From a virus (lineage: Duplodnaviria > Heunggongvirae > Uroviricota > Caudoviricetes), in IMG/VR virus record IMGVR_UViG_2531839374_000006: a stretch of 47,972 bases of DNA. One strand, given 5' to 3'. Shown here in pieces: positions 29,692 through 35,600 of this stretch. The position numbers are program-made. Position 1 is the first letter of the stretch; the number at the start of each line of letters is the position of its first letter.

Positions 29692-32600
29692 GCCTGCTGA
29701 GCTAAGTCGGCGCTGGCCCACCACCGAGGACTCGAACCTCGCACCGTCAACTTAGAAGGTTGATGCTCTATCCGGATGAGCTAGTGGTGGTTGGTGGCCC
29801 TTGCTGGACTTGAACCAGCGACCTGGCGATTATGAGTCGCTCGCTCTGACCAACTGAGCTAAAGGGCCGGAGGCAGAATAATAACCATATGTCATCACAT
29901 CTGCAAACTCATCTGACCACCAGCACGTTTAACGTCCTGTGCCGTTTTTCAGGTATAAAAAACCCGCTCAATGGCGGGTTCTGGTAAAGTTCATGCGCTT
30001 GGTTCGCCTCGCGATACAGCTTTGCGAAGCGTAGCTGAATTGAAGCAGTTTATTGGCAAAAATGCAATAACTTTTTTATTGGCTTTCTCCGCATAACGCT
30101 AATTTCATTGGTATATACAGAATGTGTTCAGCAACACCCAACCATGCGTCAATGCGATTTCTGCAAGTTTTCAAGCTCCAGCCAGGGCGATACTTATTTA
30201 ACTGTTGTGCCATTTTCAGCTTACTCATCCCCCGCCCTTTATACCGTTGCCGGAGGACACTAATCAATCCAGGATGCTCTGCCAGCACCTCACTTATGAC
30301 TCGATCAATACATAACGCCTCTGCATCAGTACAATGCGCCAGCCAGGTCTTTTGCTTGCCATTGATCATCTCTCGCAAAAACGCTTCCAGCTCAGGTTTC
30401 TCTATTCCCGCTTTTTTCATCCTGCGCAGGGCTTCATTGACGGCTGTTTTTGTCATTTTTTGGGATGCCAGCAACTGATTGAATATATTTCCCGTCTTAC
30501 CGCCACCAATATACGACCAGCGCCCCCACATGCGCAGTTTTCCCTGAATCCAGACACTTTCCAGCGTGGTGAGACGAAGGTGTTCCCCGCTTTTGCCTGT
30601 ATTTGTTGGGTAAATCATAAATAACCTTCCTTTCTCCAGATTTCTTGTGTGCGAAAAACACCTTCTGCATGCATCAGGCGTAATTCTTCTTTGGTGTAAT
30701 CGCTGGTTTTTACCCGCCCGTCGATTAAATCGTGGCACGAGCTACAGGCAATAGCCGCCTGCATATCGTGTGGCTTTATCGCTGTTCCGCACGCTCCCGC
30801 CAGTCGGTAATGCGCCAGCACAGACGTTTCGGGATTGTGATTGCAGTAGCCAGGAATTCTGACGGTGCACATCTGCCCCCGCGCCGCTTTACGTAAATCC
30901 ACCATTACGCAAACTCCAGTAACTGTGCGGCCACATTTTCGACTTCCTCCGGAGAGGAAAATTTACGGAACAGGATCCAGTTCCACAGCACATTCAGTAC
31001 AGATTTATAAACCTGCTGAAACTCGGTTTCGTCCATGTTCGCAAATGCGATAGATTTTGCCCTGCGCCCACGACTACCATCAGGATAAATATGCTCGGTG
31101 TAAAATCCGGCCTGAATGGTTACCCACTCGCGGAAAGCCTCAAACGACTTTAGCAATGCTGTATCCCGGGTTCTGCGTGTTGCAACTGTATTCAGATATT
31201 GCTCTGCGGCTTCGCTCAGAGCTGGCGTATGTTCCCGACCTACTGATTCGCACAGGTACTCAACGAAGCCTGATACCAGTTCTCGTTCTCGGGGCGTGAT
31301 CGCCCCACCGATCGGAGTCCAGTAATCGAATCCCAGTTGCAGGAGTCTGAAAAAACGCTTGTGGAATGCGTAGTTACGCACACGCTTAAAGTCTGCGTGT
31401 ATCCACTCACCTGTTTTGATTTGATGCAGAAAATCGCAACTCTCCGGCGTCGCCGGGAGAAGTAATCCGGAAGAGGTTTGTTTGACCAGTTGTATATGCG
31501 CCATTTCTCAATCTCTCGATGGCGCAGTGCAGCAGGTGCCAGTTGTTCAGGCTGGCGTGCGAATTGTAAACCAGAATGCCATGAAAAAACAAAACCCGCC
31601 GAAGCGGGTCTGGTTATTGATGAATTAACTTCACGGTTTGGGCTGGAAATTCTTATTCAGCGCTCTGCACTGCTCTTTGTCTTCTTCTTCATGGGCTTTA
31701 AATACAGAATAAGTATCAGGGTCAAAAAACGAGATAGATTCTACTTCCCTCTTGGCTACAAGTATCCGAAAGTCTTCAAGGCTAAGGCCGCCAAGACCTT
31801 CCGCTACAATTCCTTCTGACTGATAATGTCGGCGGTAGTTTGTTGTGATGTTTGTAGTTAACGTACCCTTATCCCGATACCCACTCAACAGCGGAAGAAG
31901 TTCAATATGGGTAAAATCGCCGTTTTCAAAACTTGGGCAGATAACAATTCCAACATAAAATTTTCTGGATGAGAGTGTTATAATGACGGGAAATTGCCTG
32001 ACTGCTGCTTCCATAAGGAAGCTCTCTTCTGGACTTGTGGAAACAATTCTTGCGATAGCATCCAACCTGCGATCCCCTTTCTCTGTTCTTTTTTTGCGCC
32101 GCCAACCGCAAAATGCAGCAAGAGCAACAGATGTCATTCCCCAGACTGCAGATTTAAGATCCTTTATCGAATTTCCTCCATCAAAAGAGATAGGAAAAAC
32201 TCTTTTCAGGGCATCAGGACCAAGATGAAAAAAATGCAGAATACCGTTAATCAACCAGCGGTATACCCCAAGGAAACCAAGGATCGTACAAACAACCCAC
32301 GCAACACAGACAAAAACAGCTCCCCAGGTTGCAACAAAAAAATAAGCGTCCCATCCCACAGAACGCTTATACCTATATCTTGTTTCCAAACAAAGAGTAA
32401 CATAAACATAACCACTAATCAGTATGACAGCGATCAATAGCGTATTCATTCTTACCCTGGCTTTTTGTTTTCCAATGACTCAAGCTTATCCAGCTGTTCT
32501 TTGATAGCCTTTCTGACCTTGTCGTTCTCAAGGTTAACCATGATGAAACCATCGTCGCTTACTTCGAACTTATCCTTGTTTTCTTTAAGAACTTTTGACA

Positions 32601-35600
32601 ACCTGTTCGATGGTGTCTGTATGGTTCCATACCCTCTTATTGCATATGCGAGACTCATTCTTACCTCCCATCTTACCGTTATCACCGTGTAGTGACACTG
32701 TTACATCCATGTATAAATGCTTTGATACTATGGCTATACCATTAAAATAAGTTTACCGGAAGACTTTGATCAACTACTTTTCACACCAGATACACAAATA
32801 ATGTGAAACACAACATAGAAATTGTCAAAACCGCCGGGTGGCGGGTGCGTTGAGGATGCCTGACACATCAGAGGTGGCGGGAGATTACTCCCCCACCTGG
32901 TCTCTTACTCCTCAGGTTCGTAGACTGTGAAGACAGCGACCTCCGTCTGGCCGGTTCGGATTCGTACCTCGCAGAGGTCTTTCCTCGTTACCAGTGCCGT
33001 CACTATGACGGTTAAACAGATGACGATCAGGGCGATTAACATCGCCTTTTGCTGCTTCATAGCCTGCTTCTCCTTGCCTTTCGGCACGTAAGAGGCTAAC
33101 CTACGTTTGTGAAGCATAGATTGGGCCTCAGATTAATGTTAAGCGTCTTGCAGGACGCGTAATGTTAACTGGGGCTTTTCTCTATCTGCCTTTTGGTGTT
33201 CATGCCTGAGGCAGATAGCCTCAAGCACCCATTATGATTTTAACCAAAGTCTTTATATCTATAAAGAGGCACAATATTACTCGATATATCATCATGTGTG
33301 CGCCTTATTCCAAACATTTTGGAAACAAAGCGTTCCCTCACTCCCGACATATCCAGTATCTGCTTCCAAGAAGATATATCCAGCAATTCAACTGCACAGG
33401 AAAGTAAGCGAGGTTTTTCCTCAGGGATTAACTCATCCCCCATCTCTCCTTTAATCGTCCCTCTTTTATTTAGATGGATAAATCCCGTTCTCATTTGTTG
33501 TGGCGTAATCAGCCCCAAAACCGTAGCACGATAAATACACATGCGAAGACTGATTTTCCATCGTTCTTTGAAATTAATTAGTGCATTCCAGTCAAGATGC
33601 GATCCTCGCATTTTAGGAAATTCATTAACGAACGAAACTCTAGGTACAAGGAATGCGCTCGAAAAATAATCCGCATGATGTTCTGTAATTTTATCCCCTG
33701 TTATAATCCCTTCATGCAAAACAAGATGCCCCAGTTCATGACCGAGATCTGAGCGAAATCGACACACACTCTTTTTCGCGGAATTTCTAATTATCAATGG
33801 GCGTTTACTATTAATAGTAAACGCATCAATACGATCATCCACGCCAGATACATGAGCAACAACAACCCCAATACTTTCCACGAAATTAACCATTGAAGAT
33901 ATCGGTCCCAGCCCCAACCCCCAATACCTTCTACAGGCCTCGGCAATTCTTTCAATATCTTCATCGGAGTTCAAAGGTAATCCGGACGTATCAGGAAAGT
34001 TCAATTCTGGAAGAACTATTTCTGTTTCCAAACACTTTACAAACTGCTCCAAAATTTCAGCTCGAGCCAGAATACTATTAGTTAAGGACTGCGTCCTTGA
34101 TCTCTTGCTTCTGAAATGGCAGTTCTCGCTGTCTAATGGTGATTTCCTTCCAGTGAAGAAAAACGACTCTTTAACATCCAGATAATCTGCAAGAGCTGTC
34201 AACATCTGAGATGAAGGGGGATAACCACGCTCTAACTTGTTTATAAATTGCCGAGTCACCCCCAAAGCAGTAGCAAGCTCTTCGCCCGTAACCCCTTTAG
34301 CCTGACGAGCTAATTTTAAGCAGTCACCACGATAATTACCTATAGAATCAAATAGTTCCATATTTATCACTATCTGCTTTTTTCGCATTCTTAACACGCC
34401 GCTGCAAATTCAGCGGTGGTGTTTCCACGGCCTCTGGCAATACGTCAGTATTAGCTGCTTGTACTGGAGCATGGACTTTAGACACCAATTCGTATCTACT
34501 CACTACATTATTTGATGAATCAAAACCTATCAGGGCTAAAAGCCACGTTGGAGGTTCGATATCTTCATCTTTTTTATTTGCAGATGGTAATTTTTCAGCC
34601 AGAACACGCCATGTAACATCATGTTCAAAATTAACATCATCTTCAAAAAGAGATAACTGACGACACTCAACATCATTTTTACATAAGCGATGTTTCTTTT
34701 TTGGTGAATCCAGTTTATCGGTCACAAACTGTAACGGCACCCTGTTCAGGGTAAACACAAAATTCAGAGGTGTTGAAAGAATCGCCACTCCTTTGAGTTT
34801 TTTATGATTTTTTACAAGAAAGTTTTTTATCCATCCATAGGCCCTACATCCATTAATCCAGTTATCATCATACTCATGGCGATGGAACCATAATTCGCCA
34901 AGTACGTTAGCAAATTGCTGAAGAAGATTGATAACAGATTTTTCATCCAAACAAGGATTGATTTCAAAACACGGTTGGAGATTCTGTTCAGACGGCATAA
35001 GGTATCCCTCTCTCTTAAAACTCCGCTCATCTTTACGCAAAATTTTATTTTTGTAAACCTAATCTTTGGGGTATTTCACGAATTCGTCAACCAGTTGAAC
35101 GAACTTTAACCACAATACATATTTATCTACATTGATATGAGTATCGCTAACACTATTGTGGGCATTCAGCTAAATAGCTGCGCTTAATACCGCTACACTT
35201 TTGCCAGTCCATGTTTGCCTCCGGGGAATGGGCTGACGGTTTCCATAAAATGGCGAACTTTTTTCAACAGTTGCCACATTGAGCGGCACTGATGATTACG
35301 CGTTATTGTGTCGTGAAGTGCCTGCCATAGCCGTTCAACATGATTCACCCATGGCGAGTAAACCGGCTGATAAATGCCCCTGAACTTCGGGTTCTCCTTC
35401 AGCCAGCTCTGTGTTTCCCGGCTTTTGTGGATAATGTAGTTGTCCACGATCAGCGTGATGGTTTTCGCCCGACGGTATGTCGCTTTAAGCCGCTTCAGCA
35501 GGCTGATGAACAGCGCCGAACTTTTGCTGTTGCCGCCCACATAGCTGACTTTACCTGTCCCGCTGTGCAGCGCTCCGGCCAGATAATATTTTTCATTCTG

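What the first reader, a model, noticed from the sequence alone, without database searches (positions are those of the whole stretch)
31580..35172. AT-rich accessory island in the nin region with three unrelated-looking modules
Between the conserved nin genes and the IS630 copy, the sequence becomes visibly AT-rich (by eye, not computed) compared with the surrounding phage core. It holds, all on the minus strand, an unrecognised protein coupled to an HTH-ImmA fusion, a hok-type toxin gene, and a small-protein plus membrane-protein pair closed by its own terminator. None of these has a role in the lambdoid life cycle, so the island looks like horizontally acquired cargo, the kind of prophage site where toxin-antitoxin, abortive-infection or exclusion genes accumulate.
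Basis: partly seen in the sequence, partly recalled or inferred. Interest (0 to 1): 0.7.

Follow-up and report, generated by a model that had tools for sequence, protein, structure and literature searches.

The report
Prophage cargo slots flanking hok/sok
The AT-rich stretch is real and consists of two swappable cargo slots either side of a conserved hok/sok toxin locus in a lambdoid prophage: one holds a catalogued anti-phage toxin-antitoxin system (RosmerTA), and the other holds an unnamed two-gene cassette that elsewhere sits mostly in the known P2 defence hotspot.

Summary
Window 31580-35172 has 41.5% GC against 50.0% for the whole window, and it is the lowest-GC 3.6-kb stretch present.

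- **hok is backbone, not cargo.** It is a complete, GC-normal (52.6%) hok/sok locus found in about 4,800 of 5,426 complete E. coli genomes. It acts as a conserved anchor between two variable slots.
- **Slot B (33231-35172)** carries RmrT and RmrA, a RosmerTA anti-phage toxin-antitoxin system by PADLOC (RmrA 6e-107, RmrT 2e-18). This DNA occurs in 31 of 5,426 genomes.
- **Slot A (31610-32840)** carries a 68-aa soluble protein coupled to a 272-aa protein with three predicted membrane helices and an Sm-like domain. It occurs in 10 of 5,426 genomes, while 2,321 genomes have the slot empty. The terminator that closes it is the ancestral hok terminator, not the cassette's own.
- **The slot A pair has no name anywhere I could search.** It has no Pfam, NCBIfam or PADLOC match. 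A profile search finds 2,546 cluster representatives. The small gene lies directly upstream in 21 of 21 close loci. In 12 of 16 species-level loci the pair lies in the P2 gpA-gpQ defence hotspot. It is therefore a plausible unrecognised defence or toxin-antitoxin family, but this is untested.
- **IS630 (35173-36325)** is a later simple insertion.

The parts
31592..31611 (-). Rho-independent terminator hairpin (ACCCGCTTCGGCGGGT followed by a T-run). It is the ancestral hok terminator and now closes the two-gene cassette.
   Evidence: Found by the terminator scan. In the empty-site prophage L013 the same hairpin follows the hok fbi element after 5 nt. In L001 it occurs on both sides of a different cassette.
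31610..32840 (-). Slot A cargo cassette (1,231 bp, GC 0.411), inserted between the hok fbi element and the hok terminator.
   Evidence: BLAST borders against L013 (empty slot) and L001 (different cassette between the same borders). Cassette DNA is in 10 of 5,426 E. coli genomes. The empty junction is in 2,321 of 5,426.
31631..32449 (-). 272-aa membrane protein. It has three predicted N-terminal TM helices (N-out, C-in) and a cytoplasmic Sm/LSm-like beta domain (about residues 140-241) with an invariant P-L-L-S-G-Y-R motif.
   Evidence: No Pfam, NCBIfam or PADLOC hit. phrog_3630, function unknown. AF2 pLDDT 78.6. Top Foldseek PDB hits are all Sm/LSm proteins, E 2e-3, target TM-score up to 0.76. 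Viral Sm-like hits. Hydropathy and positive-inside rule. Alignment A1.
32452..32658 (-). 68-aa charged soluble partner protein (alpha-beta-beta-alpha), coupled to the membrane gene with a 2-nt gap and preceded by SD GGGAGG.
   Evidence: phrog_9843. A homologous small gene lies directly upstream of the membrane gene in 21 of 21 loci, and also next to distant family members. AF2 pLDDT 75.5. No fold match.
32827..32844 (-). Replacement terminator-like hairpin for hok (CCGCC-ACCC-GGCGG plus TTTT), created at the cassette junction. A perfect TTGACA hexamer at 32828-32823 overlaps its T-run.
   Evidence: Read from the sequence and compared with the canonical junction. Function is inferred.
32843..33230 (-). 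Complete hok/sok/mok type I toxin-antitoxin locus. The mRNA 5' end carries the tac element GGGTGCTTGAGG at 33230, and the fbi element CCTCAACGCACCC is at 32855-32843. The hok ORF is 32905-33060 (51 aa), with an in-frame extended ORF to 33117. This is conserved backbone, GC 0.526.
   Evidence: Pfam HOK_GEF 6e-22. Rfam RF01794 120 bits at 33055-33230. Sequence read. Homologous segment in 4,797 of 5,426 E. coli genomes.
33237..33265 (-). Promoter-like site (TTTATA-17-TAAAAT) placed to start hok mRNA at 33230. The -10 hexamer overlaps the RmrA stop codon.
   Evidence: Promoter scan. Homology with other prophages ends exactly at hok +1, so this promoter comes with the slot B cargo. Function is inferred.
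33240..34361 (-). RmrA, the RosmerTA antitoxin: N-terminal XRE-type HTH plus M78/ImmA Zn-peptidase (HELGH). 373 aa from ATG 34361; the ORF is open to GTG 34397.
   Evidence: PADLOC RmrA PDLC03943 6.4e-107. Pfam HTH_3 and Peptidase_M78. NCBIfam spr1629-family antitoxin 1.9e-47, below its cutoff. 30% identity and E 3e-36 to the experimentally verified RmrA of E. coli OLC-716.
34348..34998 (-). RmrT, the RosmerTA toxin, biochemical activity unknown (216 aa from ATG 34998, SD GAGGGA). It overlaps RmrA by 14 nt.
   Evidence: PADLOC RmrT PDLC03929 1.7e-18 over nearly the full model. phrog_5786. No Pfam hit. No similarity to the verified OLC-716 RmrT. Sequence read.
34999..35172 (-). AT-rich leader upstream of rmrT. 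It probably holds the operon's promoter and ends at the IS630 insertion point.
   Evidence: Sequence. 99.3% identical to L001 up to 35172. Promoter is inferred.
35173..36325 (-). IS630 copy (1,153 bp). Terminal inverted repeats are AATAGCTGCGC and GCGCAGCTATT. It is flanked by a TA duplication (35171-72 and 36326-27) at a CTAG target. The transposase gene is 35193-36224.
   Evidence: Pfam DDE_3 and HTH_23. The uninterrupted site is seen in L001. Ends read.
36326..36534 (-). GC-normal remnant ORF (3' part of a pseudogene) between the Rosmer cargo and the DUF977 gene. IS630 disrupts its last codons.
   Evidence: Annotated as incomplete in L001, L038 and L039. Translation of the rejoined sequence.

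Best explanation
The region is a composite accessory locus of a lambdoid prophage. The IpaH gene in the window suggests a Shigella-type host. The locus is built around a conserved hok/sok type I toxin-antitoxin locus, which serves as a fixed anchor between two cargo slots with base-precise borders.

**Slot B (upstream of hok +1)** holds a RosmerTA system. RmrT is a toxin. RmrA, an HTH plus Zn-peptidase fusion, normally neutralises and auto-represses it. By analogy with tested Rosmer systems, phage infection releases the toxin and aborts the infection.

**Slot A (between the hok fbi element and the hok terminator)** holds an unnamed two-gene operon: a 68-aa cytoplasmic protein translationally coupled to a 3-TM inner-membrane protein with a cytoplasmic Sm-like domain. 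I propose that it is a second prophage-borne defence or toxin-antitoxin-like module. In this model the membrane protein oligomerises through its ring-forming Sm-like domain and acts as the membrane-damaging effector. The small partner keeps it inactive or senses the trigger.

Both cargos are low-GC, recently acquired and assort independently. IS630 inserted later at a CTAG site at the edge of slot B.

Shown: anatomy, borders, rarity, family assignments, gene coupling and genomic habitats. Inferred: every functional step for the slot A pair, and the anti-phage activity of this particular Rosmer variant.
For: Composition.

Family assignments:
- RmrA 6e-107 and RmrT 2e-18.
- Verified RmrA homologue at 30% identity, E 3e-36.
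- hok Pfam and Rfam hits.

Borders and exchange:
- Empty site L013; a different cassette between the same borders in L001.
- Other cargo in slots A and B in seven further prophages.

Frequencies in 5,426 genomes: hok in about 4,800, empty slot A junction in 2,321, Rosmer DNA in 31, pair DNA in 10.

Pair coupling: 21 of 21 loci, plus distant members.

Pair habitats:
- 12 of 16 species-level loci lie between P2 gpA and gpQ. This is the experimentally established P2 defence hotspot (PMC9122126). Unknown genes in the equivalent P4 hotspot often prove antiviral: 6 of 8 tested loci (PMC13586616).
- The pair survives as a lone islet among housekeeping genes or integrase remnants.

Fold: Sm-like C-terminal domain. 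Topology.

Rosmer background: Millman 2022 preprint and Ernits 2023.
Against: - There are no experimental data for either cargo in this window.
- The pair has no hit in PADLOC v2.0.0. Any defence role rests on guilt by location.
- The Sm-like assignment rests on weak Foldseek E-values (about 2e-3) and a model with pTM 0.50.
- The third TM helix is only moderately hydrophobic.
- In an Aeromonas siphophage the pair sits between the tail tube and tape-measure genes, where chaperone genes normally lie. That placement could point to a different role.
- RmrT here is unrelated in sequence to the one verified RmrT.
- Systems named after 2023, which are absent from the libraries available, could already include the pair.
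Confidence: 0.6

Rival explanations
1. The slot A pair is a superinfection-exclusion device rather than an abortive or toxin-antitoxin module. The 3-TM inner-membrane protein would block DNA entry by incoming phages, as P22 SieA, T4 Imm or HK97 gp15 do. The small protein would be an accessory factor.
For: - It is an inner-membrane protein in a prophage accessory slot, where lysogenic expression is plausible.
- It occurs in three unrelated temperate phage types at accessory positions.
- Membrane-protein exclusion systems are well known in prophages (established knowledge; P22 SieA paper PMC10883804 was listed).
Against: - The most conserved part is the cytoplasmic Sm-like domain, not the membrane or periplasmic parts.
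- The pair has an obligatory, translationally coupled soluble partner in 21 of 21 loci. The known single-protein Sie systems lack this.
- The pair persists as a lone islet after prophage loss, which is typical of addictive toxin-antitoxin modules.
Confidence: 0.2
2. The RmrT/RmrA pair acts mainly as an addiction or stabilisation module, or as an ImmR/ImmA-like regulatory switch for the prophage, and not as an anti-phage system.
For: - The HTH plus M78 peptidase architecture is that of ImmA/ImmR-type regulators of mobile elements (Ernits 2023).
- NCBIfam's nearest model is a 'repressor/antitoxin' family.
- It lies next to another plasmid-type stabilisation locus, hok/sok.
Against: - PADLOC RmrA and RmrT models both match over nearly their full length.
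- Tested Rosmer systems defend against phages.
- The pair is absent from most closely related prophages (31 of 5,426 genomes), so it is not needed for prophage regulation.
Confidence: 0.15
3. The slot A pair has a role in the phage life cycle, for example in tail assembly or lysis timing, and is not host-benefit cargo.
For: In an Aeromonas prophage the pair lies between the tail tube-like gene and the tape-measure gene, where tail assembly chaperones normally sit.
Against: - 2,321 E. coli genomes carry prophages with this slot empty.
- The pair occurs at non-homologous positions in lambdoid, P2-like and sipho-type prophages, and alone in chromosomes.
- A 3-TM protein is not expected for a tail chaperone.
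Confidence: 0.05
4. The low-GC stretch is ordinary mosaic compositional noise or decaying junk with no current function.
For: - An IS element and a pseudogene remnant lie next to it.
- Prophages in Shigella-type genomes are often degraded (established knowledge).
Against: - All four cargo ORFs are intact, with good SD sequences.
- The DNA is at least 99% identical across 10 to 31 unrelated genomes.
- The HExxH catalytic motif is kept.
- The family shows strong residue conservation down to about 40% identity.
- The GC dip is the most extreme in the window.
Confidence: 0.05

Closest known systems
RosmerTA (RmrT/RmrA) anti-phage toxin-antitoxin system (Millman et al. 2022; Ernits et al. 2023)
   Same: - Two overlapping genes with the toxin first.
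- The antitoxin is an XRE-type HTH plus an M78/ImmA Zn-peptidase with HExxH.
- Both proteins match PADLOC Rmr models.
- RmrA is 30% identical to the verified E. coli OLC-716 RmrA.
- The system is prophage-borne.
   Different: - RmrT has no detectable similarity to the verified OLC-716 RmrT. It has no TM segment, unlike the phage Kita RmrT.
- The activity, trigger and phage range of this variant are untested.
hok/sok/mok type I toxin-antitoxin loci (plasmid R1 hok/sok; chromosomal and prophage hokD-type loci)
   Same: - 51-aa Hok toxin (PF01848).
- Leader matches Rfam RF01794 at 120 bits.
- 5' tac and 3' fbi elements are complementary.
- Annotated as hokD in RefSeq homologues.
   Different: - Both flanks have been replaced here. 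The promoter region comes from the Rosmer cargo.
- The canonical terminator is separated from hok by the inserted cassette, and a new hairpin stands in for it.
- Whether hok is still expressed normally is untested.
P2 gpA-gpQ and P4 defence hotspots (Rousset et al. 2022, PMC9122126)
   Same: - A fixed pair of phage backbone borders with many alternative small cargo cassettes, some of them known defence systems.
- Homologues of the slot A pair occupy the P2 hotspot itself in 12 of 16 species-level loci.
   Different: - This hotspot is in a lambdoid nin region, and its anchor is an RNA-regulated toxin locus rather than cos.
- I found no paper describing the hok-flanking slots as a hotspot in the searches I ran. 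Those searches were limited.
Two-component abortive-infection systems with a membrane effector and a soluble partner (lambda RexA/RexB; membrane-toxin type II toxin-antitoxin systems such as PanT or phage Kita RmrT)
   Same: The pair is a prophage-borne two-gene unit with one polytopic inner-membrane protein and one soluble protein, tightly coupled.
   Different: - No sequence or PADLOC similarity.
- The soluble partner is only 68 aa, against 279 aa for RexA.
- The effector carries a cytoplasmic Sm-like domain that these systems are not known to have.
MscS-type channels (three TM helices followed by a cytoplasmic Sm-like beta domain, heptameric)
   Same: - Predicted N-out/C-in topology with three TM helices followed by an Sm-fold beta domain.
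- Sm folds typically form hexameric or heptameric rings (established knowledge).
   Different: - No sequence relationship (hhalign probability 0.1%; no PF00924 hit).
- No MscS structures among the top 50 Foldseek hits.
- No C-terminal alpha-beta domain.
- This is an architectural analogy only.

Membership tests
RosmerTA | Antitoxin RmrA with an N-terminal HTH and an M78/ImmA-type Zn-peptidase domain carrying HExxH | tested here: met
   Pfam HTH_3 6e-13 and Peptidase_M78 6e-13. PADLOC RmrA 6.4e-107. HELGH aligns with the motif of the verified RmrA.
RosmerTA | Adjacent, co-oriented toxin gene belonging to a recognised RmrT family | tested here: met
   PADLOC RmrT PDLC03929 1.7e-18, covering model positions 9-197 of 198. 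14-nt overlap with rmrA. It is not similar to the single verified RmrT, but RmrTs are known to be diverse.
RosmerTA | RmrT is toxic, RmrA neutralises it, and the operon lowers phage plaquing | not testable with these tools
   Needs expression and plaque assays.
hok/sok type I TA | Hok/Gef-family small membrane toxin ORF | tested here: met
   PF01848 6.4e-22. phrog_251. NCBIfam Hok-family models hit, but below their cutoffs.
hok/sok type I TA | Conserved structured leader holding the sok target and promoter region, with complementary tac and fbi mRNA ends | tested here: met
   Rfam RF01794 120 bits against a gathering threshold of 59. GGGTGCTTGAGG at the 5' end and CCTCAACGCACCC at the 3' end. 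Sok transcription itself was not tested.
Known anti-phage defence systems (PADLOC v2.0.0), for the 68-aa/272-aa pair | HMM match of either protein to a catalogued defence protein | tested here: not met
   No hit at E<=0.1 for the 272-aa protein. The small protein gave only a chance-level Cas2 hit (E 0.0035, 15.6 bits). Ten distant family members gave no hits. Libraries newer than 2023 were not available.
Type II-like toxin-antitoxin module, for the 68-aa/272-aa pair | Two small, adjacent, translationally coupled genes that always co-occur and move between unrelated mobile contexts | tested here: met
   2-nt gap. Co-occurrence in 21 of 21 loci, and in distant members. Found in lambdoid, P2-like and sipho prophages and as lone islets.
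Type II-like toxin-antitoxin module, for the 68-aa/272-aa pair | One product is toxic and the other neutralises it | not testable with these tools
   Needs expression assays.
Sm/LSm fold (C-terminal domain of the 272-aa protein) | An N-terminal helix followed by a strongly bent five-stranded antiparallel sheet that superposes on Sm proteins | tested here: inconclusive
MscS channel family | Sequence or profile match to the MscS TM3/beta-domain (PF00924) | tested here: not met
   No Pfam hit.
IS630 | About 1.15-kb element with a DDE_3 transposase, terminal inverted repeats and a TA duplication at a CTAG target | tested here: met
   1,153 bp. Inverted repeats AATAGCTGCGC and GCGCAGCTATT. TA on both sides, and the uninterrupted GCTAGT site in L001. 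The CTAG/TA rule is from established knowledge of IS630.

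The most novel reading that the evidence does not exclude
The 68-aa/272-aa cassette is the founding example of an unrecognised, widespread two-gene anti-phage or toxin-antitoxin family. A profile search finds 2,546 cluster representatives, with no Pfam, NCBIfam or PADLOC name. In this reading its effector is a membrane-anchored, ring-forming Sm-like protein held in check by a tiny soluble partner. In addition, the two flanks of hok/sok in lambdoid prophages would form a base-precise defence hotspot comparable to the P2 and P4 cos-proximal hotspots.
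Probability: 0.4. Interest if true: 0.7.

Novelty: new member of a known kind. Interest (0 to 1): 0.5.

Why it matters
Prophage accessory slots are a productive place to find new immune systems. This analysis gives exact borders for two such slots in the very common hok-bearing lambdoid prophages, so their contents can now be harvested systematically from about 4,800 of 5,426 E. coli genomes.

It also singles out one unnamed two-gene family that travels between this site and the validated P2 defence hotspot. If that family proves defensive, it would add a membrane-anchored Sm-like effector to the known repertoire.

For the Rosmer part, the result is a further natural variant with a toxin of unknown activity.

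Tried and rejected
- **Sequence libraries for the 272-aa protein.** Pfam, NCBIfam and PADLOC gave nothing for it or for ten distant relatives. An HMM search of PDB sequences gave no hit at E<=10.
- **MscS homology.** Tested with hhalign and rejected.
- **Small-protein fold.** A Foldseek PDB search gave only chance-level hits (E>2). Weak Pfam VinK_C, PADLOC Cas2 and NCBIfam TrmBL2 hits to the small protein are below any threshold and were ignored.
- **Word-indexed search.** The search with the small protein alone found only near-identical copies. An alignment query was needed.
- **Literature.** Accession-number searches found nothing, and 'Sm-like + transmembrane + anti-phage + prophage' found nothing. 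The DefensePredictor paper text did not let me match the pair. Brenes & Laub 2025 is not held.
- **Promoters.** The promoter scan found fewer promoter-like sites than shuffled controls (5 against 7.9), so promoter calls are weak.
- **Rfam noise.** Rfam c4-a1b1 and plus-strand sok hits are below threshold and were treated as noise.
- **Misleading source names.** Names such as 'multidrug ABC transporter ATPase' or 'BTB/POZ' for the small protein, and 'Heat-induc...' for a Photorhabdus homologue, have no domain support and were disregarded.

Full report

Yes. The stretch 31580-35172 has 41.5% GC, against 50.0% for the whole 47,972-base window. Among all 3,593-bp windows (mean 0.504, sd 0.033), fewer than 0.1% are as low, and all of those overlap the finding. 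The lowest non-overlapping window is 0.447.

Third-position GC is 0.295 (RmrT), 0.35 (RmrA) and 0.36 (272-aa gene). The neighbouring phage genes DUF1367, DUF1364, DUF977, DUF1627 and DnaB range from 0.47 to 0.57. The dip is interrupted by a GC-normal block, the hok locus (0.526; GC3 0.69).

The region is flanked by a lambdoid nin/Q block (DUF1367, DUF1364, Q) on one side. On the other side lie IS630 and then DUF977, DUF1627 and DnaB.

**2. What the genes are**

- **34348-34998 and 33240-34361.** These match PADLOC RmrT (1.7e-18, nearly the full model) and RmrA (6.4e-107). RmrA has an XRE-type HTH and an M78/ImmA Zn-peptidase. It is 30% identical (E 3e-36, HELGH conserved) to the RmrA of the experimentally verified RosmerTA system of E. 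coli OLC-716, whose sequence I took from the Millman et al. supplement. The toxin shows no similarity to that system's RmrT. This is expected, because Rosmer antitoxins pair with many unrelated toxins (Ernits et al. 2023). The genes overlap by 14 nt, and rmrT has a good SD.
- **32843-33230.** This is a full hok/sok-type locus. It has the Hok ORF (PF01848, 6e-22) and a leader that matches Rfam RF01794 at 120 bits. It also has the complementary 5' tac (GGGTGCTTGAGG) and 3' fbi (CCTCAACGCACCC) elements.
- **32452-32658 and 31631-32449.** These encode a 68-aa charged soluble protein (SD GGGAGG) and, 2 nt later, a 272-aa protein. Neither has a Pfam, NCBIfam or PADLOC family. PHROGs places them in two 'unknown function' families.

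**3. Architecture: an anchor and two slots**

I compared the window with annotated E. coli prophages, which gave base-precise borders.

*Slot A.* In the common arrangement (locus L013), the hok fbi element is followed after 5 nt by the hairpin ACCCGCTTCGGCGGGT plus a T-run. That hairpin is the terminator seen here at 31592-31611. In the window, 1,231 bp (31610-32840) carrying the two-gene pair sit between fbi and that terminator.
- The terminator that closes the pair is therefore the ancestral hok terminator.
- A new hairpin (CCGCC-ACCC-GGCGG-TTTT, 32844-32827) is formed at the junction behind hok.
- In strain AUSMDU00014361 (L001), exactly the same borders enclose a different 1,353-bp cassette (a 119-aa HTH protein and a 147-aa ImmA/IrrE protein), flanked by two copies of the terminator hairpin.
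- Another prophage has a YgiW-family gene there.

*Slot B.* On the other side of hok, homology with most prophages stops exactly at hok mRNA +1 (33230).
- Upstream of that point the window and L001, L038 and L039 carry the Rosmer operon. Its stop codon overlaps a -10-like TAAAAT placed to start hok at the usual base.
- Other prophages carry a 'beta family protein' gene plus an sce7726-family gene, an alpha/beta hydrolase, DUF7167 genes, DUF551 remnants or IS elements.
- The three Rosmer-bearing prophages I inspected each hold something different in slot A, so the two slots assort independently.

*Frequencies in 5,426 complete E. coli genomes.*

| Feature | Genomes |
|---|---|
| hok segment | 4,797 |
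| Empty slot A junction | 2,321 |
| Rosmer DNA (>=99% identity) | 31 |
| Pair DNA (>=99% identity) | 10 |
| Whole island | 0 |

*IS630.* It occupies 35173-36325 (1,153 bp). It has perfect terminal inverted repeats and a TA duplication at a CTAG site. L001 shows the uninterrupted site. It clipped the last codons of a GC-normal pseudogene remnant (36326-36534).

**4. The unnamed pair**

*Size of the family.* A word-indexed search found 56 clusters of full-length homologues, mostly Enterobacterales with Aeromonas. A full HMM search of 1.84 billion representatives found 2,546 proteins at E<=1e-3 and 1,318 at E<=1e-10. Most of the 150 best hits listed are 240-290 aa and match end to end. Ten of the distant ones again had no Pfam or PADLOC match.

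*Coupling.* The small gene is present directly upstream, ending within a few bases of the membrane gene's start, in 21 of 21 loci examined. Its core motif (hydrophobic-x-[IV]-[SD]-K-[DN]-G-x-[VI]-S-x-[ND]-L followed by a helix) recurs next to distant members. A looser variant is seen.

*Habitats.*
- In E. coli the pair is always immediately downstream of hok, but next to different nin genes (DUF1367, or DUF968/RusA), including in an Stx1d prophage.
- In 12 of 16 species-level genomes it lies in P2-like prophages between the replication gene gpA and the portal gene gpQ. Rousset et al. defined this as a defence hotspot that holds old and tin (PMC9122126).
- In an Aeromonas prophage it lies between tail genes.
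- In Pectobacterium and Erwinia it survives alone, next to DinI or integrase remnants or between housekeeping genes.

*Structure.*
- AlphaFold2 (pLDDT 78.6, pTM 0.50) gives N-terminal helices followed by a helix and a bent beta-sheet.
- All but two of the 50 best Foldseek PDB hits are Sm/LSm or Sm-containing snRNP chains. Target TM-scores reach 0.76, but E-values are only about 2e-3. Viral Sm-like proteins lead the BFVD list.
- Hydropathy and the positive-inside rule favour three TM helices with the N-terminus out and the Sm-like domain in the cytoplasm.
- The invariant residues cluster in that domain (K163, Y165, G167, S189-G190-x-R192, D226-F227, S240-x-F242-D243).
- The small partner is predicted as alpha-beta-beta-alpha and has no fold match.

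**5. How it most likely works**

*Rosmer.* By membership, RmrA (HTH plus peptidase) represses and neutralises RmrT. Infection disturbs this balance and the toxin stops the cell. This is inferred for the variant in the window.

*hok/sok.* This is the classical arrangement: a stable toxin mRNA and a labile antisense RNA. Here it serves as a conserved feature of the nin region. Whether the replaced promoter and terminator leave it functional is unknown.

*The pair.* I favour a toxin-antitoxin-like or abortive module. The strict coupling, the mobility between hotspots and the persistence after prophage decay all fit that reading. An Sm-type domain beneath a membrane anchor suggests a ring-shaped oligomer that could open or disturb the membrane, with the small partner as inhibitor or sensor. 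This is inference and I put it at about 0.4-0.5. The main rival is entry exclusion (0.2). A life-cycle role and 'junk' are unlikely.

**6. Comparison with what is known, and novelty**

RosmerTA, hok/sok and IS630 are known. The variant RmrT is already represented in PADLOC. The idea of prophage cargo hotspots is also known from P2 and P4.

What appears new:
- The exact two-slot structure around hok. I did not find it described, though my searches were limited.
- The unnamed pair.

I could not check defence catalogues newer than PADLOC v2.0.0 or the Brenes & Laub 2025 study, so the pair may already have a name.

**7. Verdict**

As a whole this is a new member of a known kind, namely a prophage accessory and defence hotspot. 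It contains one component that deserves experimental follow-up. Interest 0.5.

Noticed in passing
window 779-2542 (+): An IpaH-type type III effector gene (Pfam NEL E3 ligase 1e-76, plus LRR_TTSS) sits at one end of the prophage. This points to a Shigella or enteroinvasive E. coli host and to virulence cargo on the same phage.
   Followed up: partly
window 29561-29868 (-): A cluster of four tRNA genes lies just downstream of the Q antiterminator region (Rfam tRNA hits of 56-70 bits). Related prophages carry two to four tRNAs at the same place.
   Followed up: no
window 43001-44000: A second low-GC kilobase (0.397) lies in the early-left region, near a Rha/Ash-family gene (42073-42924) and an exonuclease VIII-like gene (43583-45418). 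The ORFs I scanned there had no PADLOC hit.
   Followed up: partly
L001 4111-5463 (E. coli AUSMDU00014361): The alternative slot A cassette encodes a separate HTH protein (119 aa) and an ImmA/IrrE peptidase (147 aa). This is a split version of the RmrA architecture, and it is bracketed by two copies of the hok terminator hairpin. That hints that cassettes are exchanged by recombination at this hairpin.
   Followed up: partly
L002 7014-8649 (E. coli JNEC-KY180, Stx1d prophage): Slot B of this prophage holds a 'beta family protein' gene and an 'sce7726 family protein' gene, another two-gene cargo that might be defence-related.
   Followed up: no
L007/L008 4785-5771 (Aeromonas prophage): The homologous pair lies between a tail tube-like gene and the tape-measure gene, where tail assembly chaperone genes are normally found. 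No chaperone genes were called there.
   Followed up: no
window 40141-40563 (-) and 40927-41316 (+): A YdaT-family 'toxin' gene and a CI-like repressor gene lie in the immunity region, a Rac-like arrangement.
   Followed up: no
L017 (record labelled Martelella alba): A close homologue of the pair (56% identity) occurs in a genome labelled as an alphaproteobacterium. Every other close homologue in that genome scan is from Enterobacterales, so contamination or mislabelling is possible. The neighbouring ORFs had no Pfam hits.
   Followed up: no
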